A stretch of 64,000 nucleotides of DNA, from positions 4,657-68,656 of the forward strand of contig CAVPKM010000018.1 of the NCBI GenBank assembly GCA_963705725.1, read 5' to 3'. The position numbers and the translations under genes are program-made. Every line of letters begins with the position of its first letter. Within the stretch, counting starts at the first letter, position 1. A model generated the notes under the pieces. The model ran no database searches, was not told where the DNA came from, and was given only the letters and a program-made list of their open reading frames with translations. Below are positions 3,916 through 64,000 of this stretch, one piece after another. Source of the stretch: an uncultured Gammaproteobacteria bacterium. GTDB lineage: Bacteria; Pseudomonadota; Gammaproteobacteria; UBA6002.

Positions 3916-4743
3916 TTACCGTTTGCTGCAACTTGTGGTCGCAGGAGTAGTATCATTCGAGTTTTTTGTTTTATTAGCCCTTTGCTTCTGGGTGACAATT
4001 TCTTGTAGCAAAGTTCTTGCAAATGGATAGGCTTCCAATTTCTTGTCAGTAATTTTATTAAATAGACCCACAATTGTTAAACCTTCATTATTTTTTAAGG
4101 AAGGATTGACATATTGATTAGTATCAGGCGCCGCTTTGATTAAAAAACCCGGTTTAATTCCATTTCTGCCTTTTAATAATTCAATAAGTACTAGGAATTT
4201 TGTGCTTGTTGCTTCCTTGAGAATACTAAGAATGGCATCATGCACCGGCGTATTACCAAGCTTATCTTGCACATTAATAATGTCAGGTTTTTTTTGCACC
4301 CATTGAGTACGATGAATATTATGATCTACTACTAACAAATAATTTATCGTATCTGCTGCTTCTCCTTTTACTGCACAATGAAGTGCATTTTGCCCTGTAT
4401 CAGCATCTTGAGCGGCTACCGCCATTTGCCCTAAGGTAAAGACACATTCCTTCAATCTCTTAGGATCATTGGCTTCAGCTGATTTTCTTAATCTCATTTC
4501 CGCAAGATAAATTGCTAACGATCTATCGGCATGATAGTTATTTTCTTTATAATTTTGTATCGCATAAACTGCTAATATAAAAAGGGTTAACCAACTATAC
4601 GGAGCATCTTCACTTTCAGATAAACAAGCCATCCCTGCCACCAAAAGAAACTGTAGAAAAGCGACTTGCTTAGCACGAGCTCGCTCAGTTAGGCGGTTTT
4701 TTCTTAATACCTCACCATATGTTTGCATCCGAGAACCTCTCAT
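3916..4743 (-). CDS. Ankyrin-repeat protein (eukaryotic-like; candidate secreted effector)
   Basis: Several ANK repeats (GNTPVHDAIL, GQNALHCAVKGEAADTINYLL). S/T-rich C-terminus. The true start is probably the internal MQTYGEV. Confidence 0.7.
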   Translation of the reverse strand: MRGSRMQTYGEVLRKNRLTERARAKQVAFLQFLLVAGMACLSESEDAPYSWLTLFILAVYAIQNYKENNYHADRSLAIYLAEMRLRKSAEANDPKRLKECVFTLGQMAVAAQDADTGQNALHCAVKGEAADTINYLLVVDHNIHRTQWVQKKPDIINVQDKLGNTPVHDAILSILKEATSTKFLVLIELLKGRNGIKPGFLIKAAPDTNQYVNPSLKNNEGLTIVGLFNKITDKKLEAYPFARTLLQEIVTQKQRANKTKNSNDTTPATTSCSKR

Positions 4744-4762
4744 TAAAATTTACTAGTAATTA

Positions 4763-4915
4763 TTCAGCACAGGATTGAAACGCTCATATTTTGCCACCTT
4801 CAAGCCAAAATTTAATTAAAAAGCGCAGCATACACAGGTATGTGAGCATTTTTAATTAAATTTTGGCTAAAATCTGAGCGTTTGAGCCCCTTTAGCGTTT
4901 GTGCTGAACAGTTAC
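4763..4915. repeat. Composite intergenic repeat element forming a roughly 150 bp imperfect hairpin. It has a perfect 20 bp inner stem (AGCCAAAATTTAATTAAAAA / TTTTTAATTAAATTTTGGCT, 4803-4822 and 4849-4868). Its outer arms carry the dispersed repeat-family motif.
   Basis: Direct reading shows outer arms TTCAGCACAGGATTGAAACGCTCA (4763-4786) and TGAGCGTTT...TGTGCTGAA (4875-4909). It lies between the SDR 3' end and the ankyrin gene 5' end. Related copies are at 50121-50157, 53449-53489, 18273-18300 and 17713-17748. Confidence 0.8.
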
Positions 4916-4981
4916 ATTTACTATTAGATATAAAAGCGATTAGGATAACATTTTTTATTAAAAAATAATACGTTTTAAAAT

Positions 4982-5743
4982 TTAAGCTTGCATTCTTAAT
5001 GCACCATCGAGGCGGATAACTTCACCATTTAAATAGGAATTTTCAATAATATGTGAGGCCAAATGAGCAAATTCAGCTGCTCTACCTAGCCGAGTTGGAA
5101 AAGGAATTTGGCTTGCAAGCTCCTCTTGAACTTTGGGTGAGAGACGTTCTAAGAGCGGTGTTTGAATCAAACCCGGTGCAATTGTCATGACACGAATTTG
5201 AAAACGTGCAAGTTCTCTTGCTGCAGGTAAAGTCAGGCCGCACACTCCAGCTTTCGAAGCGCTGTAACCACTTTGCCCGATTTGTCCTTCAAATGCTGCG
5301 ATAGAAGCCGTATTGATAATGACACCACGTTCTTCTTCATTTTTTAAAAGTTGCACTGTTGACATTAAAGCTGCAGTTAAACGCAGCATATTAAAAGTTC
5401 CAATGAGATTAACATCAATGACTTTTTTAAAATTCTCAAGTGGCATCGGACCATTCTTGGTCACTATTCGCTCTGCTGGAGCAATTCCTGCACAATTAAC
5501 TAACACGCGAGGTAAGTCGATACGCTGCTTTATTTCGTTAAGCGCTGATTCTACAGCTTTTTCAAGTGATACATCACACTGCAATGCTATCCCATCTATC
5601 TCTTTTGCGATCTGCGTTGCAGCAGTTAAGTCTTGATCTAATATTGCAACTTTCCCTCCCTTTTCACTCAAAAATCGAGCGGTTTCTGCTCCCATTCCGG
5701 AAGCGCCGCCGGTAATAACAATCGTTTTTCCTTTAATATTCAT
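4982..5743 (-). CDS. Short-chain dehydrogenase/reductase (3-hydroxyacyl-CoA dehydrogenase type II-like)
   Basis: TGGASGMG cofactor motif, NCAG, and S...YxxxK (YSASKAG). Confidence 0.8.
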   Translation of the reverse strand: MNIKGKTIVITGGASGMGAETARFLSEKGGKVAILDQDLTAATQIAKEIDGIALQCDVSLEKAVESALNEIKQRIDLPRVLVNCAGIAPAERIVTKNGPMPLENFKKVIDVNLIGTFNMLRLTAALMSTVQLLKNEEERGVIINTASIAAFEGQIGQSGYSASKAGVCGLTLPAARELARFQIRVMTIAPGLIQTPLLERLSPKVQEELASQIPFPTRLGRAAEFAHLASHIIENSYLNGEVIRLDGALRMQA

Positions 5744-10983: not shown

Positions 10984-12252
10984 ATGAGTAATAAATCTAA
11001 GCCACTACCTAGGCCGTTATTTGACACATTAAACAGATTAGACCAGGAATCTGATTCAGGCTTGAATGATTATCTCCTAACCTTAGCTATTCCAGAAGCA
11101 ATACAAGAATACGCGCTAACCAGCGAATTTTTACGAAGTTATAGTGGTTCATCTGATACTTTTAATGCTTATAGGCGAGAAGTAGAAAGATTTTTACAAT
11201 GCGCTTGGTTACTAATAGAAAAACCAATCAAATTAATTGATCGTAATGACATACGAGACTACCTCCTATTAATTCAAAATCCACCAAAAAACTGGATTGC
11301 CACTAAAAATGTGGCCAGATTTATTATTAAAAATGGTCGGCGCATTCCGAATTCCGAATGGAGACCATTTGTAGTCAGAATTTCAAAGGTTCTTCACAAG
11401 GAAGGAAAACGTCCAGATAAAGCACAATATCAGCTCACGAATAAATCTGTTCAAGCCTTATTTGCAGGATTAAGTACCTACTTTACCTTTTTACAGCAAG
11501 AAGGTTACCTAGAAGTCAACCCAGTCCAATTAATTAGACAAAAAAGTCGTTTTATTCAAAAAGTCCAATCTCAAAAAGTTACACGAAAGTTAAGTAATTT
11601 ACAGTGGCATGTTGTCATTGAAACTATTGAAAATTTAGCGAATCAAGACGCTTTTTATGAACGCCATCTTTTTCTCATTTCTATTTTTTATTTGTTAGGC
11701 CTGCGTATTTCAGAAGTTTCTGAAACGCCTGGCAGAATACCTAAAATGGGTGATTTCAATCCTGATAAAAATGACAGATGGTGGTTTACAACAGTCGGCA
11801 AAGGCAATAAAGTACGCGATGTTGCTGTGCCAAACGCAATGCTCGAGGCTTTAAAACGTTACCGAATAAGTAGAGGTTTAACGCCGTTACCTGGCCGTAG
11901 TGAAATTTCACCGCTTATCCATAAAGAGAAAGGAAAAGGAGGGATTGGCACAAGACAAGTGCGAAAGTTAATTCAAATTTGTTTTGATCGAGCTATTTCT
12001 CAATTGCGTTTAGCAGGTAAGGAAGATGAGGCACAGGATTTAAATTTTGCAACCGTCCACTGGCTAAGACATACTGCAATATCTGCAGATGTAGAACACA
12101 GGCCACGCGAACATGTTAGAGACGATGCCGGTCATGAAAATGCAATGATTACAGATCGCTATATTGATACGGATCGAATTTCTCGTCATGAATCCGCTAA
12201 ACTGAAACCACTCAAACCCTTACTTGAGGATAATCTGGAGAAAGAATGCTAA
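10984..12252 (+). CDS. Tyrosine site-specific recombinase (phage-integrase family), with no adjacent tRNA
   Basis: Catalytic R (GLRISE), HxxR (HWLRHTAI) and Y (ITDRYI). N-terminal SAM-like domain. Its stop overlaps the start of the malic-enzyme gene. Confidence 0.75.
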   Translation: MSNKSKPLPRPLFDTLNRLDQESDSGLNDYLLTLAIPEAIQEYALTSEFLRSYSGSSDTFNAYRREVERFLQCAWLLIEKPIKLIDRNDIRDYLLLIQNPPKNWIATKNVARFIIKNGRRIPNSEWRPFVVRISKVLHKEGKRPDKAQYQLTNKSVQALFAGLSTYFTFLQQEGYLEVNPVQLIRQKSRFIQKVQSQKVTRKLSNLQWHVVIETIENLANQDAFYERHLFLISIFYLLGLRISEVSETPGRIPKMGDFNPDKNDRWWFTTVGKGNKVRDVAVPNAMLEALKRYRISRGLTPLPGRSEISPLIHKEKGKGGIGTRQVRKLIQICFDRAISQLRLAGKEDEAQDLNFATVHWLRHTAISADVEHRPREHVRDDAGHENAMITDRYIDTDRISRHESAKLKPLKPLLEDNLEKEC

Positions 12253-17712: not shown

Positions 17713-17748
17713 CACGGGTAAGAGTCTGTTCAACGCACAAATGTTATA
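17713..17748. repeat. Dispersed intergenic repeat, degenerate copy (GGGTAAGAGTCTGTTCAACGCACAAATGTT)
   Basis: Shares the GTTCA(A/G)CGCACAAA(C/T)GTT core with the copies at 18273 and 4875. Confidence 0.5.
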
Positions 17749-18148: not shown

Positions 18149-18272
18149 CCTTTCCTTATCGTAACCTTAACAAATAAAGAAATAATAAAGCGGAATATGC
18201 ATATTTTCAATAAAAATATAATATCTTTATGTATTATATAGGCATTTGCTAATTATAAGCAAACATAAGCTC

Positions 18273-18300
18273 GCGGGGTAACGCACAAACGTTCATATTA
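18273..18300. repeat. Dispersed intergenic repeat copy (GCGGGGTAACGCACAAACGTTCATATTA) at the pyrD 3' end
   Basis: Contains AACGTTCATATT, which is shared with the 50121 copy, plus the ACGCACAAA core. Confidence 0.5.
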
Positions 18301-19300
18301 TACTTTTGCAACACTTTGAAATCAGAGAAGGCCCTTGATAAATGAGTCCAGTATAAAGCTGCACTAAATCGGCGCCTGCCTTAAATTTTTCAATAGCTTG
18401 CTCGGGAGACATCACGCCTCCGCTTGCAATTAGCGAAATAGCATGACCAGTAGTCAATCGTTTGAATTCACTGAGGACTTGAGTGGATAGCTCAAATATC
18501 GGCTCACCGCTCAATCCGCCTGTTTCAGCAGCCAATGGCTGGGCTTTAATTTTAGTACGGTCAATGGCAGTATTGGTCGCGATAATACCGTCAACATGGT
18601 GTTGAATAAAAATAGCCGCCATTTCCTCTATTTGAGCTTGATTCAAGTCAGGAGAAACTTTAACCACAATAGGGACATAGCGATTTTGGGTTTGAGACAA
18701 CGCAAGTTGTCGATCTTTCAAGGCAGCAAGCAAGCTCGATAGATAAGCGCTGCCTTGAAGATCTCGCAAACCAGTGGTATTAGGAGAGGAAATATTCACC
18801 GTGACATAGCTGGCATAGGGATGAACTTTATCATAACAGAAGCAGTAGTCGTCAATTGCATGGTCAAGCGGGGTGCTAGCATTTTTTCCGATATTAATAC
18901 CAATTACGCCTAAATTATTTTGCTTCTCGAGCATCGCGACGAGATGATCCACCCCTTTATTGTTAAAACCCATTCGGTTAATCAAAGCCTGATTTGTTTC
19001 GAGTCGAAATAGCCTCGGTTTAACATTTCCTGGCTGGGGTTTTGGAGTAACGGTTCCAATTTCAATAAATCCAAAACCGAGCTTACAGAGTGCCTTAATA
19101 TAATCCCCATTTTTATCTAAACCGGCAGCAAGTCCAATAGGATTTGGGAAATCTATGCCAAATACTTTTCTTGGCAAAGGAATAGTTTTCCGGTGCAGAC
19201 AACCCAGTATTTCAAGTAGCTTAATCGCTTTTAAAGAAAAATTATGGGACAATTCAGGTTCTAACTGAAAAAGGATGGAACGAATTAGCTTATAAATCAT
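18293..19300 (-). CDS. pyrD: Dihydroorotate dehydrogenase (quinone), class 2
   Basis: N-terminal membrane-associated helix and FMN-binding TIM barrel ([16 protein letters not shown]; ASGGV). Confidence 0.9.
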
Positions 19301-24121: not shown

Positions 24122-24216
24122 AGTCATCAGACTTGTTAAAGTGGAGAAAACGTTCAGACGTCGTCACGCGGCTTGTCCGTGCTAAATGGTTTAACTGAAT
24201 CTGATTTCGCTAATAA

Positions 24217-48759: not shown

Positions 48760-50076
48760 TTAGATTTTGCTTTCAGTAATGCTAATCATTTTTTCTAGTG
48801 CACGTCTTGCGTTTATCACAATCCATTGCTGTCCTTCTTCAGTCAACCGTTGCCTTGTGCCTTTGAATTCATGCACTATATCTCCAGGCCTAACAAGATT
48901 AAATAAAGGTGTTTTTCCCTTCCTTAACAAATCCAGAACAGCAACTAAATGAGGTGGGTCATTACGCGACATTGTTGCACAGCCACAGCCTCTCTTTTTA
49001 AATTGGTTTAATGGGATATCACTGAGATTAGCAACCTTAATTTTTTTACTTTCACAAACATCTCTCAAATTTGTTACCATGTGATTTTCGGTACCAACAG
49101 CGTACTTTCCAACTCCTGCACGATCGTTGAAAACCATGTCCCACAAATAAGCTGTGGAGCCATAACCATCAGCAATTTTAACAACCTCGTATCGACACTC
49201 AGGATGAACAACAACATGATAGCCTTGCTGTTGCCAATAAGTCACCATCTCGGGATGATAGTAACTATGCACACCGCATTCACTAGCAAATAAAATCAAC
49301 TGTGCTCTATCAAATCGTGAAAGAACTTCCTTGTTTTGTTCAGCCAACCGAAAATTAACAGCTTCTTGCCCTGAAGGCCAATATGCAATGTTATGTTTGG
49401 CTATACCTAGCCAAGCTGCTACATTTTCTCCCATATGGCGATCTGGAATAAATAATATTTTTTTATTTTCTTTAAGTGCCCATTGAAATATTTTTTTTAC
49501 ATTTGAACTGGTGCAGACGGCACCACCTTGTGCTCCAGTCATCGCTTTAATGCGTCCAGATGTGTTCATATAGCAAACAGGGAGAATGTTATTCACATCA
49601 TAACGTTCGTTTAACTGATCAAAAGCAGGTTGCACCATAAAATCCTTTGCCAGCATTTCCATGGTGCAACCTGATTTAGGATTGGTAATATAAACTGATT
49701 GATCATGGTTTGCCATGATACTAATTGACTCAGCCATAAAATGAACAGCAGATTCAACAATGACTTTTTTTTCAGGATGTTGAACGGCCATCAGCGCAAG
49801 TTGATAAGAATCACCAATCGTACCACCAAAATACTTTATCATTTTGACAATTTCCCCACCCATATAATAATGAGCGAGCAATAACAATGAATCACCAAAA
49901 TATTTGATAGAGGACTCTATGTACGGTTGCATCCACATCAGTGTAGTCAAAATATTACGGTCAGGTAATGATTGATATTCCTCTGCATAGGGCATAAATT
50001 CCTGCTGATACCAATCAAGAGGGTAATCATCTTGACAAACTTGCATATTTGATTTTAGGACAGTATGAGTTTTCAT
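48760..50076 (-). CDS. nadA: Quinolinate synthase (long form)
   Basis: Motifs align to NadA: LLLAHYYM, HFMAESISI, VCYMNTSGRIKA, IPDRHMG, VHPEC, GYGSTAYL, GCGCATM. Start taken as the internal MKTHTVLK. nadB and nadC lie downstream. Confidence 0.7.
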   Translation of the reverse strand: MKTHTVLKSNMQVCQDDYPLDWYQQEFMPYAEEYQSLPDRNILTTLMWMQPYIESSIKYFGDSLLLLAHYYMGGEIVKMIKYFGGTIGDSYQLALMAVQHPEKKVIVESAVHFMAESISIMANHDQSVYITNPKSGCTMEMLAKDFMVQPAFDQLNERYDVNNILPVCYMNTSGRIKAMTGAQGGAVCTSSNVKKIFQWALKENKKILFIPDRHMGENVAAWLGIAKHNIAYWPSGQEAVNFRLAEQNKEVLSRFDRAQLILFASECGVHSYYHPEMVTYWQQQGYHVVVHPECRYEVVKIADGYGSTAYLWDMVFNDRAGVGKYAVGTENHMVTNLRDVCESKKIKVANLSDIPLNQFKKRGCGCATMSRNDPPHLVAVLDLLRKGKTPLFNLVRPGDIVHEFKGTRQRLTEEGQQWIVINARRALEKMISITESKI

Positions 50077-50120
50077 AATCGACTCTTTTATATCTATAAA
50101 TTTTTGTGTTCGAAGATAGA

Positions 50121-50157
50121 AAAATATGAACGTTTCAATCCTGTGCTGAATAGTTAC
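50121..50157. repeat. Dispersed intergenic repeat copy (AAAATATGAACGTTTCAATCCTGTGCTGAATAGTTAC) between nadB and nadA
   Basis: Near-identical to the reverse complement of 4763-4792 (1 mismatch in 30) and to the 3' part of 4875-4915. Confidence 0.75.
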
Positions 50158-50307: not shown

Positions 50308-51759
50308 TCATTTTTTTCGCGCCAGTACTAAGTTGAGTTGATCTCGTAAGCCGGCTTCTGTGCGTATAATGCCAGCGTAAGAACTCATCTCACCACGTAA
50401 CCCGCGCCAATGTACATTGATCTGGCTTGCACGTCGTAAATCGACAGTACTGGTAGAATCCCAATCCTTGACAGGCTGAAATAAACTAAGCGGTGTCTCT
50501 AATGCTGTACAACTAATTGCAGCAACATGACGTCCCATAACAATGCCCTCTAATAATGAATTACTAGCCAAACGATTCGCACCATGTAACCCGGTAAAAG
50601 CCGTTTCACCAATAGCATAAAGCCTTTTTAAATCTGTATTTCCATGAATGTTTGTTAGAATGCCGCCGTTCATATAATGAGCAGCCGGTACAACAGGAAT
50701 TAAATCTCGGCTTAAATCTAAATCAATATCAAGCAGCTTACGATAAATCATTGGAAAGCGTTGCTGTAAAAAAACTTTATCTTTATGACGGATATCTAAA
50801 TGAACATAGTCATAGCTGCTTTGTTCGATTTCACAAAAAATAGCACGTGCAACCACATCACGAGTAGCTAATTCCATTTTGTCAGGAGCGTAATGTTGCA
50901 TGAAGCGCTCACCTGTGGCTGGCAATCTTAAATAAGCTCCTTCGCCTCGTAATGCTTCAGAAAGAAGGAAGTTATTAAGTTTTGAAGAATATAATAATGT
51001 CGGATGAAATTGATAAAACTCTAATCCGTCAACTCGAGCACCTGCACGATATGCCATTGCCACTCCATCACCGGTGGCAACATTGAGATTTGAAGTATAT
51101 CGATATACTTTCCCTGCACCACCTGTCGCCAGAACAACCGCATTGGCAAGAAATGTATGTATCAGTCCAGTTTTAACTTCGAGCGCATATAGACCCACTA
51201 CTTCAGGAAAGCAAGCTGGCTGATGAGGTACCACCTGCGTAATTAGATTCACCGCGACATGTTCTTCAAATATAGTTATTTGTTGAAAATACTTTAGGCG
51301 CGCAATCAATGATTCAACAATTTCTTCACCTGTCCTATCCCCTACGTGATAAATACGTCGTTTCGAATGACCAGCTTCTTGACCACGAGCTAAGTTATTA
51401 TCAATATCACGATTAAAATTAACGCCTTGATTAAGCAGATATTGAATACTCTCAGGGCCCTGGTTCAAGATAGCTACGACAGCTTCCTCATTACATATAC
51501 CATCGCCTGATGATAGTGTGTCTGCTATATGCTGAACGATATCCTCCTTGCTTTCAGCAGCGGCAACGCCACCTTGCGCATAATAAGTATTGGATTCCTT
51601 GAGCTTACCTTTGCACACCAACGCAATTTTTAGACGAGGCTGTAACTTCAATAATTCTAATAAACAACATAAGCTTGCAATTCCACTTCCAACCATAATG
51701 AGATCAAATTGAAATCGGTGACCACGCTGAGAAATCGTTTTTTGCATGTTAAATATCAC
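50308..51759 (-). CDS. nadB: L-aspartate oxidase
   Basis: N-terminal FAD GxGxxG (VGSGIASL). Succinate DH / fumarate reductase flavoprotein fold motifs. Confidence 0.9.
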   Translation of the reverse strand: MIFNMQKTISQRGHRFQFDLIMVGSGIASLCCLLELLKLQPRLKIALVCKGKLKESNTYYAQGGVAAAESKEDIVQHIADTLSSGDGICNEEAVVAILNQGPESIQYLLNQGVNFNRDIDNNLARGQEAGHSKRRIYHVGDRTGEEIVESLIARLKYFQQITIFEEHVAVNLITQVVPHQPACFPEVVGLYALEVKTGLIHTFLANAVVLATGGAGKVYRYTSNLNVATGDGVAMAYRAGARVDGLEFYQFHPTLLYSSKLNNFLLSEALRGEGAYLRLPATGERFMQHYAPDKMELATRDVVARAIFCEIEQSSYDYVHLDIRHKDKVFLQQRFPMIYRKLLDIDLDLSRDLIPVVPAAHYMNGGILTNIHGNTDLKRLYAIGETAFTGLHGANRLASNSLLEGIVMGRHVAAISCTALETPLSLFQPVKDWDSTSTVDLRRASQINVHWRGLRGEMSSYAGIIRTEAGLRDQLNLVLARKK

Positions 51760-53049: not shown

Positions 53050-53398
53050 CTATTTTTTTATTGCTTGCTGAGCAAAATATTGATCACTTAGCATACAAGA
53101 AGTATATTCTTGCATTTCCTCAAAAGTCGTTTCTAAAAATGGTTTAGTCATATAAGGTGATGCACAATGTATCACTACCTCAAGGTGTGGTATTTCATTG
53201 AATATAGTAGATACCGATTCTTTCGTGTTATTCATTAAATCAAATTGAAAATTACGTTGAGTGTGAATTCTCTTTAATTTTAATACCGCTTGAAGATTAT
53301 GGAGATCTAGCAGCAGCATAAAGCTTTGCATTTCTTTCTTGAGCAACCCTCGGTAAAATTTCTCAACCTAATCCTCGATTAGCTCCGGTGACCAGCAT
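53050..53398 (-). pseudogene. Short-chain dehydrogenase pseudogene (N-terminal about 115 codons, disrupted by a stop and frameshifts)
   Basis: MLVTGANRGLG is followed by a stop. In a second frame: EILPRVAQERNAKLYAAARSP, then a stop. In a third frame: LDLHNLQAV...LEVVIHCASPYMTKPF. It is truncated before the catalytic S/YxxxK. Confidence 0.55.
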
Positions 53399-53448
53399 AT
53401 AAAACTCTGATGCTTTATATAGTATAATTTTTCCTCTAAAAAAAAATC

Positions 53449-53489
53449 TGAACGTTTAGCGACTTCTAGCGTTTCTGCTGAATAATTAC
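53449..53489. repeat. Dispersed intergenic repeat copy (TGAACGTTTAGCGACTTCTAGCGTTTCTGCTGAATAATTAC)
   Basis: Same architecture as 4875-4915 (TGAGCGTTT-GAGCCCCTT-TAGCGTTTGTGCTGAACAGTTAC). Confidence 0.7.
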
Positions 53490-55106: not shown

Positions 55107-55199
55107 ATGAATATGATATTGAACAAAGATATATTAGTTGCTGGATTACGTTCTCGTGATGGAGCATCATATCAAATACTGCAGAATATCCCGAACTGA
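55107..55199 (+). pseudogene. ECF sigma-factor region-2 remnant
   Basis: A 31-codon fragment (MNMILNKDILVAGLRSRDGASYQILQNIPN) matches the DxxLVxxxxxGDxxAYxxLxxxY region-2 signature and is followed by a stop. Confidence 0.25.
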
Positions 55200-55495
55200 A
55201 AAATAAAATTGGTTATCTCTGTGACTCTTTTTATAGAATATGAATCGGTTTTAGAGCGACCCAGCTTTTTTTCAGACTCACAGAAAAGATGTCGATGCGA
55301 TTTTAAATATGCTGGGTTCAAAAGCGATTAGAACCCCCATTCAGCAAAGGGTTGAAACGTCCATATATTGCCGTCGGACTGTTTTTAGGTTAAAAGTTTA
55401 GTTGTAAAATATATTTTTTTCTTGGATATTTTAATATCTTTACGATATTATGATAATATTTAACGCGGAAAGTATCTAGATTAAAAAAAGCAGGC

Positions 55496-58647: not shown

Positions 58648-59072
58648 AGAATTATGTCGTATTTACAGGATTTCCGGGTGATATTCAATAGGACTGCAAC
58701 ACGCCTGCTATTTTTTATTACCTAAGTAAAATTCGATCCTTCTATTTTCAAAACCTCCCGCGCCGTACTCCAGGAATTCTGGAAGAGCCAATTTTCTGAA
58801 TCACTTTATTCACATTTTTTGAAATCTGCTCATAAATTTATTCGGGCAGCCTAATAGCTTACCAAGATTTTCAATAGGATAGCTATATTCTGACCCCATC
58901 TTTATCAGCATATGGGCAATGAGTTCTTCTGCAGCATAAATACCCTCCTCATCTGAACTAAGAACGTATTCGCCACACCGTTTAAAACCATTCAAATGAA
59001 AAACTGACACAGTTTTTTGAACACTCCCCAACTGCTGATCAAGTCTAAAATTTTACAGCTAATATTTCCATA

Positions 59073-59378
59073 TTATTTAACTACAACTCCTATATTTTGG
59101 AATTCCATAGCTCCAGTAAAATTTATTAAAATTTCTTTCTGCTTTTCTTTAGATACCAGTGTTCCATCATCCCATTTTACGAATGCATTTGAGCTAACTA
59201 TTACACAAAATCTACCGTCTGATAAACGCCCATAATCAACTTTCAATGGATTGGCATTTATTTCCTTCTCGATATTCAATTTTAAATCGGGCAACAGATT
59301 GAACTATAAATCCTTTACTACTTTTTACACCTTGCTTATTTATCCATGTAAACATTTCTAACACTTCTTTTAATTAAT
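59073..59378 (-). pseudogene. Cassette gene c1, frameshifted paralogue of c2 (61243-61551)
   Basis: The C-terminal ORF 59073-59294 (…DGRFCVIVSSNAFVKWDDG…KQKEILINF) aligns to c2 (…DARKWILVSNGIKFELVHDD…SEQLVLEI). The N-terminal part lies in another frame at about 59295-59378 (GFIVQSVARFKIEY ~ VTFSVVNDWDSFDKLVTF). Confidence 0.45.
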
Positions 59379-59520
59379 ATCCAAAATAATACTTTGGCTT
59401 TATATTTAATTCATCTAACCTAAATTATTTCTATTTGCTCGAAGAATATTTCAGTGGCGATTATTTAAATAGTGAAAATTCAAACTAATTCAAATAAGGC
59501 ATCTCTAGGTTTTGATGGAT

Positions 59521-59808
59521 TTAAGAAGCCCAACAAGTTTTATCTGGAAGCTCGCCGTTTTTCCAATGCTTTATTATTGCTAATATTGCTCGCTGGATAT
59601 ACATACCCTTATCTCCTTCCGCAAGCTCCACAATGTCAACATCACCAGTGGTTTTGTTAATTTTAACTCTGCCCCGCACCAATTTTGATATCCCTCTTAA
59701 CCTACCCGCTGCATTTTTAATAGGCTCAGTGGGTAAATTAAATTCGTACACATAATAAACAAAACCTTGCTGGTCAATATCTTTATATAGCTCAATAGAA
59801 AATGCCAT
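59521..59808 (-). CDS. Cassette gene b1, a small protein of unknown family with C-terminal HWxxGExPxKTxWAS
   Basis: 95 aa. Paralogue of b2 (61684-61971) across the full length (roughly one third identical). Its ATG directly follows the TAA of a1. Confidence 0.5.
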   Translation of the reverse strand: MAFSIELYKDIDQQGFVYYVYEFNLPTEPIKNAAGRLRGISKLVRGRVKINKTTGDVDIVELAEGDKGMYIQRAILAIIKHWKNGELPDKTCWAS

Positions 59809-59991
59809 TTATGGCCTCAAGCTCATTGTAGATGTAGTTACAAACTCATCAGGATTCCAAGTCCGACTTGAGAGATTTGAGGCATTATGAGTTATATAAT
59901 CGTTTTTAAATAATATTTCCAACCTAGTTTCGAAATATTCGTGTTGTAATAGCTCGATATCTTGTTTAACAAAATTACCTTTCTGCCTCAT
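59809..59991 (-). CDS. Cassette gene a1, a small protein of unknown function
   Basis: 60 aa. Its C-terminus SSRTWNPDEFVTT aligns with a degraded copy upstream of b2 (TGRIWNLEKFIT). Confidence 0.4.
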   Translation of the reverse strand: MRQKGNFVKQDIELLQHEYFETRLEILFKNDYITHNASNLSSRTWNPDEFVTTSTMSLRP

Positions 59992-60189
59992 GCGTCAGCA
60001 TTTTCTATATATGGAGCAAATCAATTTAGACCGGTAGAAAGCTGATGTACATCAAAAAATAAATGTTGCTTAATACGTTAGATTTTAAAATCTTTCATTA
60101 GCTTCGGTTGCTAACTCTCACAAAGCAGTAAAGCTTGTGAATTAATTTCTTCCAGGCCACTTGGATAGATAATATCAATACTCTTTAAT

Positions 60190-60429
60190 TCATTTTTTAT
60201 TTTCATACCATCCTTCACGAAAAGCCTGATCAGATATTTTTAAAACCCAACTCTGCCCACATTTAATGCATTTATATTGTAACTCAATAAAAGGACTCTT
60301 AGGCTTAATTTCACCTAGCTTAATCAAAATATCTTCTTTTATCAAAACATGAATTCTATTAGCAAATTTTAAATAGATTTCTTCAGTTTTAAATGGACCT
60401 TTTTTTAAATTACAAAATATACAACTCAT
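60190..60429 (-). CDS. Small CxxC...CxxC zinc-ribbon protein (P3), last gene of a three-ORF overlapping operon
   Basis: SCIFCN ... CIKCGQ. Its start overlaps the P2 stop (ATGA). Confidence 0.45.
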   Translation of the reverse strand: MSCIFCNLKKGPFKTEEIYLKFANRIHVLIKEDILIKLGEIKPKSPFIELQYKCIKCGQSWVLKISDQAFREGWYENKK

Positions 60430-60711
60430 TTTTTTAACCTATAAACATACACATCTTCAATCGAAACAGGTTCAATTAAAAATTGTGGCGAATGTCCAGA
60501 ACCTGCATTTGGATATGAATTTGTAAATGGCTCGTAACCAATTTCAACATTATAACCAATCTGTTTTTTTTTGCCTTGCCATGCGGTAATGTACTGTGCG
60601 CCGTCTGCGTTTTGGTTGCTCTCTTGGACCCATATTAATCAGAATGTGAGCTGCTGCTTTTTGAGCTGGACCTAAATCTTCGCATAATAATATGTTAATG
60701 GATTTATTCAT
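60426..60711 (-). pseudogene. Small protein P2, interrupted by a frameshift in a T9 homopolymer (plus-strand 60564-60572). With 8 T it would be a 94-aa protein.
   Basis: Frame A (60550-60711) encodes MNKSINILLCEDLGPAQKAAAHILINMGPREQPKRRRRTVHYRMARQKK... Frame B continues ...KKQIGYNVEIGYEPFTNSYPNAGSGHSPQFLIEPVSIEDVYVYRLKK to the stop at 60426. Its start overlaps the P1 stop. Confidence 0.4.
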
Positions 60712-60988
60712 TCATACATTTCGATAATTTATACCCAAGCTCAGTAAGTTCTGTGCAACGTTTAAATATTGGTTTATCCCAATCCATGCTTTCTAGACAA
60801 AATCTATCTAATAAAATAGTAGCCTTCTCCACACTACCTGAAGTATTTGCATTAATTATATTTTTCAAATAGGTATTAAGATTATTTATCAAATACCATT
60901 CCAAGCTTTCAGTTTGAGGAAATGTATTTTTAAGGTCATTAATATATTGCTTAATTTTACTCATTAATTCTATTTTACTAATATTCAT
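60704..60988 (-). CDS. Small hypothetical protein P1 (94 aa), first gene of the P1-P2-P3 operon
   Basis: ORF with no recognisable domain. Tight overlap with P2. Confidence 0.35.
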   Translation of the reverse strand: MNISKIELMSKIKQYINDLKNTFPQTESLEWYLINNLNTYLKNIINANTSGSVEKATILLDRFCLESMDWDKPIFKRCTELTELGYKLSKCMNE

Positions 60989-61242
60989 AATTAATAACCA
61001 TATTCATAGTATTTCTCGGCATCATTATTTCATTAAATTTATATTGACCTAGTGGTCCTAATAAAAATTTTTGCATTTCCCCTTCAATCAGTCCTGGACT
61101 AAATCTTAACTGTGGAGCAAACTTAACCTTTACATTTGAATTAATACACAATTCTTCATTTAAGAATGCAGGGTCTCATTCTGGTGATGGCACTACCATT
61201 GGTGGTTTAAAAGAGTACCAAAATTATTAAAAACAGCGATAT

Positions 61243-61551
61243 TTATTTATTATTTTGAAGTCTTTGTTCTAAATCAGCAGTAATTTCAAGAACTAGCTGT
61301 TCACTTTCTTCCGTAGGAGCTAAAAAATAATTACCATAAACATCATCGTGGACTAATTCGAACTTAATGCCATTACTTACTAGAATCCACTTTCTAGCAT
61401 CCGGACCATCAGCTTTTGTCAAAGCCTTAGCCGAATAATGACTTTCAACAAAAGTCACCAATTTATCAAAACTATCCCAATCATTAACTACTGAAAAAGT
61501 GACTTCCAAAGGCTTTCCTGCTGTTTTTGTGATCATTCGTTTAATTTTCAT
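61243..61551 (-). CDS. Cassette gene c2 (intact, 102 aa), unknown function
   Basis: Paralogue of the frameshifted c1. Acidic C-terminus. Confidence 0.45.
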   Translation of the reverse strand: MKIKRMITKTAGKPLEVTFSVVNDWDSFDKLVTFVESHYSAKALTKADGPDARKWILVSNGIKFELVHDDVYGNYFLAPTEESEQLVLEITADLEQRLQNNK

Positions 61552-61683
61552 TATTTCCTCTTAGGTGCAAATTATTCGTAAGCCCACAAGCTTCATCTAC
61601 TTTAATATTTGTCCGCTGAGCTATCAGCCACATATCCTCACAAAGTATCATAGGCCTTCTCCACATTATCATCGAATATTTAT

Positions 61684-61971
61684 TCAAGAAGCCCAAGTAG
61701 TTTTCTCTGGAAACTCTCCTGTTAGCCAATGTTTCATTAATGCCCAACTGGCTCTTTTTGCATGGTTGCCTTGATCACCTTCAGCAAATTCAATCACATA
61801 GACATCTCCTTTTAGCTTATCTAGTTTTAAAATTCCTGAGACTAATTTTGATTTAAATCTAATTTTACCGGTAGAAGATTTGTATTGATCCCCAGGAAGC
61901 TTAAATTGATATTTGTAATGAATAAAATACTTGTCTTCTTTCATTTTGATTACCTCCACATAAAATGCCAT
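61684..61971 (-). CDS. Cassette gene b2, paralogue of b1
   Basis: MAFYVEVIK...HWLTGEFPEKTTWAS; start taken at MAF. Upstream of it (about 61972-62090) is a frameshifted a2 remnant (FESRFEGIFKTD / NGLITAHEAANDTGRIWNLEKFITQFGMCWKK). Confidence 0.5.
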   Translation of the reverse strand: MAFYVEVIKMKEDKYFIHYKYQFKLPGDQYKSSTGKIRFKSKLVSGILKLDKLKGDVYVIEFAEGDQGNHAKRASWALMKHWLTGEFPEKTTWAS

Positions 61972-63334
61972 ATTATTTTTTCCAGCACATTCCAAATTGC
62001 GTTATAAATTTTTCTAGATTCCAAATTCTTCCTGTATCATTGGCTGCTTCATGTGCAGTAATTAGTCCGTTTTAAATATACCTTCAAATCTTGATTCAAA
62101 TCTGAGCCAAAAGAAAAATTGCGATGATGCAAGGAATATTAAACACTATCCACACAATTTTCATTTATTACATACTTAACTTCTTTTATATTTATTGGCT
62201 TCTCTATAATAGAAATTTCTAATGGATAGATGTCTAGATTCCTTGAAGACAAGAGTCTATTAATTATCGCTTCTCCTATGACTTTTTTGTCTGAATTTGC
62301 TAAAAAAATAAACTTCTTGGAATTTAGCATTGTTAAATAATCAACACTTACGATTATTATCCATGAATTAAAAACAAATAACATTTCATTTCAGGAATAA
62401 ATATCGACACTTTTTTTTAACATCTCTTCATTATCCCAATTGAATATCTTATGGTGTCTATACATAAAGTCTCTTACATGCCATTCTCTAAAGACAGTTG
62501 TCTCAAAGCTTGTATGTGAATTCCCCAAATTTTAGATTGAACACCATGAAGCAACTCTTCTACAATAGTTAATCTAGGATTTCATTTTAATAATAATTGA
62601 TAAATTATCAGGCCCTCCTGCGGCTGCATCAGCTTTTACCATTTCTAAAAATCTAAGATTATCAGAACCTGGCTGAGAATATAAATATCGCTTTTTTTAA
62701 AAATTAATTCCGTCTAACTTCTAGACCAAGCTGATCGCACCACTTATCCTACATTTAATCAGTTAGCTACCTCTCTTGGCCGTGATGGATTGAAAGACAG
62801 CGTATTAGATTATCCTTATGCCCTTTGCTAAGCGAAGAAATATCAGGCCTAATGAAGGGAAATTTCTAAAATATCTCACTTCGCGTTTAAAATTAAAGAC
62901 GAGATTGTTTAAAAACTAGGTGCTTTATCAAAAGCAAATAATCTGGCTGCAGCAGGCATGCAAGCTACTTCAAAGGATAACAGGGATTCCCGAACTCAAA
63001 CCCTACTACTTGAATATCTTGATTTGGAGCTTAAACAAGAAGTCCTTAGTAGTTATTCTGAAATAAAACATCGGTTAATAAATAAAACTACTTGTCAACA
63101 AGATATTTTATATCTCTATCGCAAATCAAAAAGCGCAACCAAAGTCAAACCAGTTATCTAAAGCAAAGCCTGTACTTTTTCTGAAAACTATATCGGGCAG
63201 CGAAAAGGATATGTACCCAGGCAACGGGTGAAATTCTGGCAAACTCGTCAATAACCTCTTGAGAAGCGCCTTCCTGAATCATTTTCTTATAAACAGTCAG
63301 AACCGGACAAACTACTTAATTAGACATAGATCAC

Positions 63335-64000
63335 CTATAGTTTTGTTTGTAACAAATTTTGGCTCGATAAGCTATTAACTTTTTCTTCTAGAAATTTAGA
63401 GATAGTAGTCCTTTGCTTTCTAAAGCCAGCTTTTCTATCAATTGGATCTAGTTTATCCTCTTCTTTTAAATTCCTATTCATTTCACCAAATATTTCCTTA
63501 AGTTCTTTGTACTGAGCTTCTGACATTGTTATTGCAAAAGGCGCAATAACAAATCTTAAGCCCGTCCGAAATCCATAGGTACTAGATCGTAAACTTGCCC
63601 AACTGTGATATATAAGAGAATCCTGATTTTTAGCCTGATCAAAGTATTCCATGAATAATTTTTTATAATTGGTAGAAATATCCAATTGTTTCATGTTAAG
63701 TGTTAAATCATCTTTCTTATCTGATCTTTTCCATTGGATGACTTCTTCTAATTGATTAATAGAATGCAATAATTCACTGATCTGTGGATTATCCTCATTG
63801 CCTATTTTTAATGGGAACCCAATTGCCATTAATCTTTTTTTATTTGGATTACCTTTATGATTAAATTCAAATACAGTGTGAATTTCGCCATCAAACTTTT
63901 CGCCATCTAAATCATATTCATTCTCTTCACCATCTTTTTCAAAATGAATATGTGTGTGCTGTAAGGTATAGTCAGCGCCGCGGAAATGAACTCGCGTATT
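63335..64000 (-). CDS. Alpha-class carbonic anhydrase-like protein (eukaryotic-type), 5'-partial; the gene starts beyond the window end
   Basis: The frame is open from nt 64000. YTLQHTHIHF...GEENEYDLDGEKFDGEIHTVFEF aligns to the alpha-CA zinc-ligand region SYRLIQFHFHWG...[21 protein letters not shown]. Confidence 0.6.
   Translation of the reverse strand, partial: NTRVHFRGADYTLQHTHIHFEKDGEENEYDLDGEKFDGEIHTVFEFNHKGNPNKKRLMAIGFPLKIGNEDNPQISELLHSINQLEEVIQWKRSDKKDDLTLNMKQLDISTNYKKLFMEYFDQAKNQDSLIYHSWASLRSSTYGFRTGLRFVIAPFAITMSEAQYKELKEIFGEMNRNLKEEDKLDPIDRKAGFRKQRTTISKFLEEKVNSLSSQNLLQTKL

What the first reader, a model, noticed from the sequence alone, without database searches (positions are those of the whole stretch)
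4763..4915. Novel dispersed intergenic repeat family; one copy is a roughly 150 bp composite hairpin with a perfect 20 bp stem
A motif of roughly TGA(A/G)CGTTT...(T/C)TGCTGAA(C/T)A(G/A)TTAC with core AACGTT recurs in the window:
- twice in inverted orientation at 4763-4792 and 4875-4915, enclosing a perfect 20 bp inverted repeat (4803-4822 / 4849-4868) around a 26 nt loop;
- at 50121-50157, between nadB and nadA (1 mismatch in 30 against the 4763 arm);
- at 53449-53489, with the same bipartite structure as 4875-4915;
- degenerate copies at 18273-18300 (pyrD 3' end) and 17713-17748 (between the DoxX genes).

Every copy is intergenic and mostly sits at gene 3' ends. This is consistent with a REP/MITE-like element, a terminator or mRNA-stability hairpin, or a small RNA. 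I do not recognise it as a described repeat.
Basis: seen in the sequence. Interest (0 to 1): 0.55.

Follow-up and report, generated by a model that had tools for sequence, protein, structure and literature searches.

The report
Small non-autonomous transposon (MITE) family
The repeats are copies and fragments of a roughly 160-base miniature transposon that carries no transposase gene and has the end sequences of one known group of insertion sequences; it is ordinary genome "junk DNA", though this family does not seem to have been described.

Summary
Four strong copies of GTAAYTRTTCAGCA–N8-18–AAACGYTCAKATTTT lie at 4756-4792, 4869-4915, 50121-50157 and 53443-53489. There is a degenerate fifth at 55339-55372, and two inverted copies enclose a perfect 20-bp hairpin.

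The 160-bp composite (4756-4915) is the real unit. It is a MITE with a long end (47 bp), a short end (37 bp) and a central AT-rich hairpin, flanked by an exact 8-bp direct repeat, ATTTACTA. Two other uncultured gammaproteobacterial contigs (L056, L006) carry homologous 174-bp composites at unrelated sites. Each has its own flanking duplication, and their hairpins keep pairing through compensatory changes.

The terminal 15 bp (GTAACTATTCAGCAC) plus the 8-bp duplication match single-ORF IS66-family insertion sequences of the ISBst12 group: 14/15 to an IS on Geobacillus pHTA426, and 13/14 to the published ISDge4 end.

The solo copies are half-elements. One replaced the tail of nadB, and four relatives lack it at that junction. 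Two others abut truncated pseudogenes.

I found no transposase, terminator signature or Rfam match. The genome-wide copy number and the parent IS could not be determined. Verdict: a new member of a known kind, of low to moderate interest.

The parts
4748..4755 (.). Left target-site duplication, ATTTACTA
   Evidence: It is an exact 8-bp direct repeat of 4916-4923 and abuts the element end directly.
4756..4792 (+). Short-type terminal inverted repeat (copy A, 37 bp), read from outer end to inner on the + strand: GTAATTATTCAGCACAGGATTGAAACGCTCATATTTT
   Evidence: E = 3.8e-9. Two Logan contigs of the same organism break and overlap here, at 4755-4783.
4803..4868 (.). Central AT-rich hairpin: perfect 20-bp stem (4803-4822 / 4849-4868) and a 26-nt loop with a small apical stem
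   Evidence: The same position and structure, with different sequence and compensatory pair changes, occur in L056 and L006.
4869..4915 (-). Long-type terminal inverted repeat (copy B, 47 bp), read from outer end to inner on the - strand: GTAACTGTTCAGCACAAACGCTAAAGGGGCTCAAACGCTCAGATTTT
   Evidence: E = 1.9e-14.
4916..4923 (.). Right target-site duplication, ATTTACTA
50103..50157 (-). Copy C: half-element, made of the short-type end plus part of the inner region. Its outer end lies at 50157, and it encodes the last 7 codons and the TGA stop of nadB.
   Evidence: It is 84% identical to 4756-4810 over 55 nt, with profile E = 1.8e-9. Homology to relative L058 stops at its outer end. The element is absent from the nadB-nadA junction in L058, L071, L072 and L073.
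53443..53489 (-). Copy D: half-element, made of the long-type end. Its outer end lies at 53489. Its inner side abuts a decayed short-chain dehydrogenase pseudogene.
   Evidence: Profile E = 3.8e-13, alignment, and the pseudogene.
55339..55372 (+). Copy E: degenerate short-type end that has lost its outermost bases. It abuts a 3'-truncated PIN_3 pseudogene.
   Evidence: Profile E = 1.1e-3, sequence, and PIN_3 at 6.4e-8.
18263..18301 (+). Possible very degenerate remnant at the pyrD stop codon; not established
   Evidence: Profile E = 0.058. pyrD's Pfam domain runs to its last residue, so the adjacent similarity is probably native coding sequence.
24124..24158 (+). Possible very degenerate long-type remnant; not established
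   Evidence: Profile E = 0.048, with the sequence.

Best explanation
**What it is.** The repeats are copies of a miniature inverted-repeat transposable element (MITE), a 160-174-bp non-coding element.

**Architecture.** The complete unit reads, in order:
- a long end of 47 bp;
- a short spacer;
- an AT-rich hairpin with an 18-20-bp stem;
- another spacer;
- a short end of 37 bp in inverted orientation.

Both ends start GTAAYTRTTCAGCA and carry a subterminal box, AAACGYTCAKATTTT. The long end has 10 extra bases between these two boxes.

**How it moves.**
- Shown: the ends carry the terminal signature of single-ORF IS66-family insertion sequences (ISBst12 group), and insertion is accompanied by an 8-bp target-site duplication, as for those ISs.
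- Inferred: a DDE transposase of that group, encoded elsewhere, binds the two ends and moves or copies the element.

**Copies in this window.**
- The composite at 4756-4915 is one intact insertion, lying between a short-chain dehydrogenase gene and an ankyrin-repeat gene.
- The copies at 50121, 53443 and 55339 are half-elements left after deletion or decay.
- One replaced the variable C-terminal tail of NadB and now supplies its stop codon.
- Two sit against truncated pseudogenes.

**Open point.** Conservation of the central hairpin across genomes suggests it matters for transposition or for the stability of the element or its transcript. That step is inferred, not shown.
For: **(1) Terminal inverted repeats and strong fold.**

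**(2) Target-site duplications on 3 of 3 complete elements.**
- Window: ATTTACTA on both sides, an exact 8/8 match.
- L056: ATTGCTTT / GTTGCTTT.
- L006: CATATTGT / TATATTGT.
- The chance of an 8-mer match with at most 1 mismatch is about 4e-4 per element (my arithmetic).

**(3) The three composites are homologous end to end** (66-82% identity) but sit in unrelated flanks. They are therefore independent insertions.

**(4) Similarity between copies stops at the GTAA ends.** The flanks are unrelated.

**(5) Insertion polymorphism at the nadB-nadA junction.**
- Four relatives with 82-88% NadA identity have nadB and nadA overlapping or 28 nt apart, with no element.
- Homology to the window breaks exactly at the outer end of copy C.
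- No copy occurs in about 72 kb of those relatives.

**(6) The termini match ISBst12-group ISs.**
- The IS66-like single-ORF IS on Geobacillus pHTA426 ends in GTAACTATTCAGCCC / GTATCTATTCAGCCC, with 8-bp duplication GACGAGTT.
- B. thuringiensis: GTAACTACTCAGCTT.
- Vibrio casei: GTAACTATTCACCCA.
- Octadecabacter: GTAACTCCCAAGCAC, with duplication TGTTTTTA.
- Streptomyces: GTAAGCATTCAGAAG, with duplication AAGCCGAG.
- All five encode DDE_Tnp_IS66 plus DUF6444 transposases.
- Published ISDge4 (ISBst12 group) has ends GTAACTGCTCAGCA / GTGACTACTCAGCA and an 8-bp direct repeat (PMC12898284).
- Identity to the window consensus is 11-14 of 15 for these, against 8/15 for a canonical three-ORF IS66 end.

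**(7) No coding capacity.**

**(8) A second family with the same termini.** A Desulfobulbaceae contig (L015) holds two inverted elements of about 160-180 bp with the same termini but an unrelated interior, so this IS group has spawned MITEs elsewhere.

**(9) Weak hint of further copies.** Two Logan contigs of the same organism end and overlap inside copy A. This is consistent with further copies in the genome.
Against: - No IS66-type transposase, intact or degraded, was found in the window or in any related locus fetched, by tblastn or by a profile against six-frame translations. The mobilising partner is therefore unidentified.
- The subterminal box AAACGYTCAKATTTT was not seen in any full-length IS examined.
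- The source genome is not in the searchable genome or metagenome collections. The genome-wide copy number is unknown, and only two other genomes with the family were found.
- Only one complete element lies in the window. The other copies are halves without recognisable duplications.
- In L006 and L056 the duplication is 7 of 8, not perfect.
- Two of the plasmid ISs examined showed no clean duplication, and four gave no clear ends.
Confidence: 0.82

Rival explanations
1. REP/BIME-like elements: short extragenic palindromes spread by a RAYT (IS200/IS605-like) transposase. The composite would be a BIME, a pair of inverted REPs.
For: Copies are dispersed, short and mostly extragenic. Some are single and some are paired in inverted orientation around other sequence.
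Against: - Single units are not palindromic and fold no better than shuffles (z between -0.3 and +0.9).
- Complete elements carry 7-8-bp target duplications, which RAYT-type single-strand transposition does not produce (general knowledge).
- The termini match DDE-type IS66-family ISs.
- No RAYT gene was seen in the window, although not every ORF was scanned.
Confidence: 0.03
2. A cis-regulatory site: a two-box operator for a DNA-binding protein (boxes GTAAYTRTTCAGCA and AAACGYTCAKATTTT, spaced one helical turn differently in the two forms) that controls the downstream genes.
For: - Four copies (B, C, D, E) point from outer end to inner end towards the start of the next gene downstream.
- The 10-bp length difference between the long and short forms keeps both boxes on the same face of the helix.
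Against: - The downstream genes are functionally unrelated: an ankyrin protein, nadA, a dead dehydrogenase and an unknown ORF.
- The site is absent from the nadB-nadA junction of four relatives.
- Target duplications and IS-type termini are not expected for an operator.
- With only four cases, the orientation bias is not significant.
Confidence: 0.04
3. A structured RNA gene or a transcription terminator / mRNA-stabilising hairpin. It could have been co-opted from a MITE, as Coxiella's CbsR16 was from QMITE2.
For: - The fold is very stable on both strands (-64 and -68 kcal/mol, z -6 to -7.5).
- The central hairpin keeps pairing through compensatory changes across three genomes.
- The composite lies 3' of a dehydrogenase gene on the same strand.
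- QMITE2 is transcribed at one locus in Coxiella (PMC5896051).
Against: - No Rfam family matches. The best matches are far below threshold, to eukaryotic miRNA hairpins.
- The element contains no promoter-like or intrinsic-terminator-like site.
- The stem is AT-rich and is not followed by a T-run.
- Palindrome symmetry can also be maintained at the DNA level.
- This reading does not conflict with the element being a MITE. It would be a secondary role.
Confidence: 0.1

Closest known systems
ISBst12-group (single-ORF) insertion sequences of the IS66 family, such as ISBst12, ISDge4 and the IS66-like element on Geobacillus kaustophilus pHTA426
   Same: - The terminal sequence GTAACTATTCAGC is shared: 11-14 of 15 identical in five ISs from four phyla, and 13/14 to one published ISDge4 end.
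- The target-site duplication is 8 bp.
- The ends are imperfect inverted repeats.

Sources.
   Different: - The window element has no transposase gene and is 160-174 bp rather than about 1.6 kb.
- Its ends extend to 47 and 37 bp, with a subterminal box (AAACGYTCAKATTTT) not seen in the ISs examined.
- It has a central hairpin.
- No cognate IS was found in the same lineage.
QMITE2 of Coxiella burnetii (Wachter et al. 2018, PMC5896051; review PMC10969869)
   Same: - Size is 150-190 bp, with terminal inverted repeats and unique flanking direct repeats of 7-9 bp.
- The core folds very stably.
- Most copies are truncated.
- Copies overlap the 3' ends of ORFs by a few bases.
- The host is a Legionellales-type intracellular gammaproteobacterium with many pseudogenes.

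Sources.
   Different: - Sequence relatedness could not be tested, because the QMITE2 sequence is not in the text held.
- The one REP-like palindrome in a 20-kb C. burnetii sample (L069 16883-16963) is GC-rich and unrelated.
- The QMITE2 core is described as a GTAG REP targeted by IS1111. No IS family has been assigned to QMITE2.
Other bacterial MITEs, such as Neisseria Correia elements, Rickettsia palindromic elements and ERIC (from general knowledge)
   Same: They are small, non-coding, dispersed, hairpin-forming elements with inverted ends. They insert near or into gene ends and can donate stop codons or C-terminal residues.
   Different: - Correia elements duplicate TA and carry an IHF site.
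- RPEs insert in frame inside genes.
- None has GTAA…TTCAGC termini with an 8-bp duplication.
REP/BIME elements
   Same: They are short, dispersed and mostly extragenic repeats, sometimes paired in inverted orientation.
   Different: REP units are themselves palindromic and leave no target duplication. Here the units do not fold and duplications are present.

Membership tests
[quoted passage not shown] | Small size (about 100-400 bp) and no coding capacity | tested here: met
   The elements are 160 bp (window) and 174 bp (L056, L006). The longest ORFs within the window element are 21-28 codons.
[quoted passage not shown] | Terminal inverted repeats | tested here: met
   The arms 4756-4792 and 4869-4915 pair along their conserved boxes. 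The same holds in L056 and L006.
[quoted passage not shown] | Flanking target-site duplication that differs between copies | tested here: met
   Window: ATTTACTA, 8/8. L056: (A/G)TTGCTTT. L006: (C/T)ATATTGT. That is 3 of 3 complete elements.
[quoted passage not shown] | Multiple dispersed copies in one genome | tested here: inconclusive
   The window's 64 kb holds 4 strong and 1-3 degenerate copies. The rest of the genome is not available. Contig breaks in copy A hint at more copies.
[quoted passage not shown] | Presence/absence polymorphism (empty sites in relatives) | tested here: met
   The nadB-nadA junction lacks the element in L058, L071, L072 and L073, and homology breaks at the element's outer end. 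No clean empty site with a single copy of a duplicated target was obtained.
[quoted passage not shown] | A related autonomous IS with matching ends that supplies the transposase | tested here: inconclusive
   The terminal 15 bp match ISBst12-group ISs of other phyla. No such transposase occurs in the window or related loci.
IS66 family, ISBst12 group (as the source or mobiliser of the ends) | Ends beginning GTAA, with the group-specific continuation GTAACTAYTCAGC | tested here: met
   Identity to five ISBst12-type IS ends is 11-14 of 15, against 8/15 for a canonical IS66 end. Published ISDge4 ends are in PMC12898284.
IS66 family, ISBst12 group (as the source or mobiliser of the ends) | 8-bp target-site duplication | tested here: met
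   The window element has 8 bp. The pHTA426 IS, the Octadecabacter IS and the Streptomyces IS each have 8 bp. ISDge4 has 8 bp.
IS66 family, ISBst12 group (as the source or mobiliser of the ends) | Encodes a DDE_Tnp_IS66 transposase between the ends | tested here: not met
   There is no ORF in the element and no IS66-like coding sequence in the window. It is therefore not an IS of this family, only a non-autonomous derivative or dependant.
REP/BIME | Each unit is an imperfect palindrome forming a hairpin; no target duplication; associated RAYT | tested here: not met
   Units fold no better than shuffles and duplications are present. The RAYT gene was not searched for genome-wide.
Intrinsic terminator | GC-rich stem followed by a T-run on the transcribed strand | tested here: not met
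   The scan finds no terminator-like site inside 4744-4981. The stem is AT-rich and is followed by GGCTTGAAGG / AAAATCTG.
Any Rfam RNA family | Match at or above the gathering score | tested here: not met
   Only a tRNA-Arg scores in the window. Permissive hits in 4700-5000 are all far below threshold.
Coxiella QMITE2 | Sequence similarity to the QMITE2 / CbsR16 consensus | not testable with these tools
   The sequence is not in the paper text or the held supplements. A 20-kb C. burnetii sample has no hit to the window profile.

The most novel reading that the evidence does not exclude
The central hairpin is under selection, rather than being just a leftover of an internal deletion. It keeps its position, stem length and pairing through compensatory changes in three genomes while its sequence diverges. 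On this reading it is either a required cis element for transposition by the poorly understood single-ORF IS66-type transposases, or a co-opted RNA or regulatory structure. The 10-bp difference between the long and short ends would then reflect an asymmetric two-site transposase-DNA complex. If so, this family would be a compact natural substrate for working out the ISBst12/IS66 mechanism.
Probability: 0.15. Interest if true: 0.45.

Novelty: new member of a known kind. Interest (0 to 1): 0.25.

Why it matters
- **Annotation.** The finding explains the only substantial dispersed repeat in this window. It also explains why short-read assemblies of this organism break here.
- **Effects on host genes.** The element has reshaped the 3' end of nadB, and copies sit next to two decayed genes.
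- **IS biology.** It links a MITE family to the ISBst12 group of the IS66 family. A recent review of prokaryotic MITEs (PMC10969869) does not mention IS66. The conserved ends plus hairpin could help define what that little-studied transposase recognises.
- **Overall.** Otherwise this is an ordinary selfish element, in an uncultured gammaproteobacterium that looks related to Legionellales/Coxiella.

Tried and rejected
- **Genome scan.** A pattern scan of 185,579 species genomes gave 15 hits, and the source genome was not among them. Only L006 was homologous. L015 shares only the termini, and the rest are chance matches, several inside coding genes.
- **Metagenome scan.** It gave 40 hits. About 30 are one coding gene of a human-gut Clostridia species. 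Only L056 is homologous.
- **L054.** It looked like the left end of a full IS, but the contig has no transposase and little coding potential, so I dropped it.
- **Other collections.** The viral contig scan gave 0 hits. blastn of the composite against plasmids gave only short AT-rich chance hits.
- **Transposase search.** tblastn with nine IS66-type transposases, and an HMM of them against six-frame translations of the window and related loci, found nothing.
- **Empty site for the intact composite.** The neighbouring dehydrogenase has no close orthologue (best 68%), so this was not possible.
- **Are C and D two halves of one element split by an inversion?** Rejected. They are in direct orientation, and the nadC-nadB-nadA order matches the relatives.
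- **Does similarity extend beyond the GTAA ends?** No.
- **Organism name.** Cluster look-up gave no names.
- **Termini of four more plasmid ISs.** Pseudanabaena, Deinococcus QL22, ISAs21 and ISKpn15 could not be resolved.

Full report
**Observation**

The region 4744-4981 lies between two genes on the minus strand: a short-chain dehydrogenase (4982-5743) and an ankyrin-repeat protein (3916-4743).

It contains a perfect 20-bp inverted repeat (4803-4822 / 4849-4868) around 26 nt. Outside that repeat lie two further inverted arms, 4756-4792 and 4869-4915. The region folds much better than shuffled sequence on both strands, with z = -6.1 and -7.5.

The arm motif recurs at 50121-50157 and 53443-53489. 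Both halves of the motif are enriched over dinucleotide shuffles; 0 of 100 shuffles reach the observed counts.

A profile of the units gave these results across the window:
- The four strong copies score E = 1.9e-14 to 3.8e-9.
- Two borderline candidates lie at 24124-24158 and 18263-18299 (E about 0.05).
- Nothing is detected at 17713-17748.

This is the only substantial dispersed repeat in the 64 kb.

**Anatomy**

Read from the outer end inward, every unit is GTAAYTRTTCAGCA, then a variable stretch, then AAACGYTCAKATTTT.

There are two forms:
- A short form of 37 nt: copies A (4756), C (50157) and E.
- A long form of 47 nt with 10 extra bases: copies B (4915) and D (53489).

Single units do not fold.

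The composite at 4756-4915 is one long end, a hairpin and one short end in inverted orientation. The exact 8-mer ATTTACTA flanks it on both sides, at 4748-4755 and 4916-4923. It is a direct repeat, not an extension of the inverted repeat.

**Relatives elsewhere**

The source genome is not in the searchable genome or metagenome collections. Pattern scans found only two truly homologous loci:
- L006, an uncultured Gammaproteobacteria MAG.
- L056, a JGI metagenome contig.

Both carry a 174-bp composite with the same layout of long end, AT-rich hairpin and short end. They sit in unrelated flanks, and each has its own flanking direct repeat:
- L056: ATTGCTTT / GTTGCTTT.
- L006: CATATTGT / TATATTGT.

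The three composites align end to end at 66-82% identity. The ends are the most conserved part. The central hairpin differs in sequence but keeps its stem through several double changes, for example AU/UA/CG at one pair.

So there are three independent insertions in three genomes, each with inverted ends and a 7-8-bp duplication. That is the signature of transposition by a DDE-type enzyme.

**Insertion polymorphism**

Copy C lies at the nadB-nadA junction.
- In four relatives with 82-88% identical NadA (L058, L071, L072, L073), nadB and nadA overlap or are 28 nt apart, and no element is present.
- Nucleotide homology between the window and L058 stops exactly at the outer end of copy C.
- In the window the element encodes the last seven residues (RNYSAQD) and the stop codon of NadB, replacing a tail that varies between relatives.
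- No copy of the family occurs in about 72 kb of those relatives.

Copy D abuts a decayed, N-terminally truncated short-chain dehydrogenase pseudogene. Copy E abuts a PIN_3 pseudogene that has lost its 3' part.

The solo copies also retain some inner sequence of the matching half of the composite. I therefore read them as half-elements left by deletion, not as a separate kind of unit.

**Which transposon family**

A literature search turned up ISDge4 of Deinococcus geothermalis. It is an ISBst12-group, single-ORF member of the IS66 family, with ends GTAACTGCTCAGCA / GTGACTACTCAGCA and an 8-bp direct repeat (PMC12898284). One of those ends is 13/14 identical to copy B's terminus.

I checked this on real records.
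- The IS66-like single-ORF element on Geobacillus kaustophilus pHTA426 ends in GTATCTATTCAGCCC and GTAACTATTCAGCCC. The 8-mer GACGAGTT flanks it.
- A tblastn search with its transposase found relatives in many phyla.

Of eight relatives examined, four gave clear ends:

| Host | Terminal sequence | Duplication |
|---|---|---|
| B. thuringiensis | GTAACTACTCAGCTT | none seen |
| Vibrio casei | GTAACTATTCACCCA | none seen |
| Octadecabacter | GTAACTCCCAAGCAC | TGTTTTTA |
| Streptomyces | GTAAGCATTCAGAAG | AAGCCGAG |

The other four were unresolved. All five transposases (pHTA426 plus these four) carry DDE_Tnp_IS66 and DUF6444.

Against the window consensus GTAACTATTCAGCAC, these ends score 11-14 of 15. 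A canonical three-ORF IS66 end scores 8/15 (sequence from PMC12888890).

A Desulfobulbaceae contig (L015) holds two inverted elements of about 160-180 bp with the same termini but a different interior. This IS group has therefore given rise to MITEs more than once.

**What was not found**
- No IS66-type transposase, intact or degraded, in the window or in any related locus.
- No Rfam match other than a tRNA.
- No promoter-like or terminator-like site inside the element.
- No similarity in plasmid or viral collections.

Two Logan contigs from run ERR10755948 are identical to the window. They end and overlap by 29 nt inside copy A, as expected if that sequence branches to other copies. This is weak evidence, because other contig ends fall in unique sequence.

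**Conclusion**

The repeat family is a MITE. It is non-autonomous, and its ends and target duplication are those of ISBst12-group IS66-family insertion sequences.
- Shown: the structure, the duplications, the insertion polymorphism and the terminal match.
- Inferred: mobilisation in trans by such a transposase, and any role for the conserved hairpin.

**Comparison with what is known**

In architecture and host type, the closest described element is QMITE2 of Coxiella burnetii: 150-190 bp, 7-9-bp direct repeats, a strongly folding core, mostly truncated copies and overlaps with ORF 3' ends (PMC5896051, PMC10969869).

Homology to QMITE2 could not be tested. One Coxiella palindrome I sampled is unrelated.

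The host appears to be an uncultured Legionellales/Coxiella-like gammaproteobacterium. The evidence is 37% GC, ankyrin and F-box proteins in it and its relatives, and best named homologues from Legionellales and Coxiella.

This is a new family of a well-known kind of element. Interest is low to moderate.

Noticed in passing
window 50308-50312: The window has a 1-nt deletion relative to an otherwise identical Logan contig (L059) of the same organism. The deletion splits nadB (483-aa ORF plus an out-of-frame tail), whereas nadB is intact (537 aa) in L059. It is probably an assembly or homopolymer error, or a minority variant, rather than a true pseudogene.
   Followed up: yes
window 53050-53400 (- strand): A decayed short-chain dehydrogenase. 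The N-terminus MLVTGANRGLG is followed by an in-frame stop. Pfam adh_short matches only profile positions 3-109 of 195. It lies immediately inside copy D.
   Followed up: partly
window 55110-55335 (+ strand): A PIN_3-domain pseudogene with one stop and one frameshift. It is truncated after profile position 84 of 115, exactly where degenerate copy E begins.
   Followed up: partly
window 58650-64000: More than 5 kb with only short ORFs (164 aa or fewer) and no convincing Pfam hits. This could be a degraded gene region or lineage-specific small genes.
   Followed up: partly
L015 4344-4522 and 4620-4775 (Desulfobulbaceae MAG JANTGB010000038.1): Two adjacent, mutually inverted elements of about 160-180 bp. 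Their termini are the same, GTAACTATTCAGCA, but their interior is unrelated to the window family. This is probably a second MITE family of the same IS group. No clear target duplications were seen.
   Followed up: partly
window 4932-4943 and 55320-55331: The exact 12-mer AAAAGCGATTAG lies just outside copy B and just outside copy E, in opposite orientation relative to the elements. It is probably chance. At E it lies within PIN pseudogene coding sequence.
   Followed up: partly
window 10984-12252 (+ strand): A 422-aa ORF with a weak tyrosine-recombinase (Phage_integrase) domain sits among housekeeping genes, with no adjacent tRNA. No other mobile-element genes were noticed nearby.
   Followed up: no
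L069 16883-16963 (Coxiella burnetii chromosome): A perfect 33-bp-stem palindrome lies immediately after the pnp stop codon. It is probably one of the REP-like 'small QMITE2' copies described for Coxiella, and it is unrelated in sequence to the window element.
   Followed up: partly
window 50046-50076; L071, L072: NadA in this lineage has a 10-residue N-terminal extension (MKTHTVLKSN in the window) before the conserved MQVCQDDYPL. In relatives the nadB stop overlaps this nadA start. The element was inserted just upstream of it.
   Followed up: partly
window 3916-4743; L072 2021-6930: There is an ankyrin-repeat protein in the window, and large ankyrin and F-box-like proteins in a relative. These are eukaryote-like domains typical of Legionellales effectors and suggest a host-associated lifestyle.
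   Followed up: no
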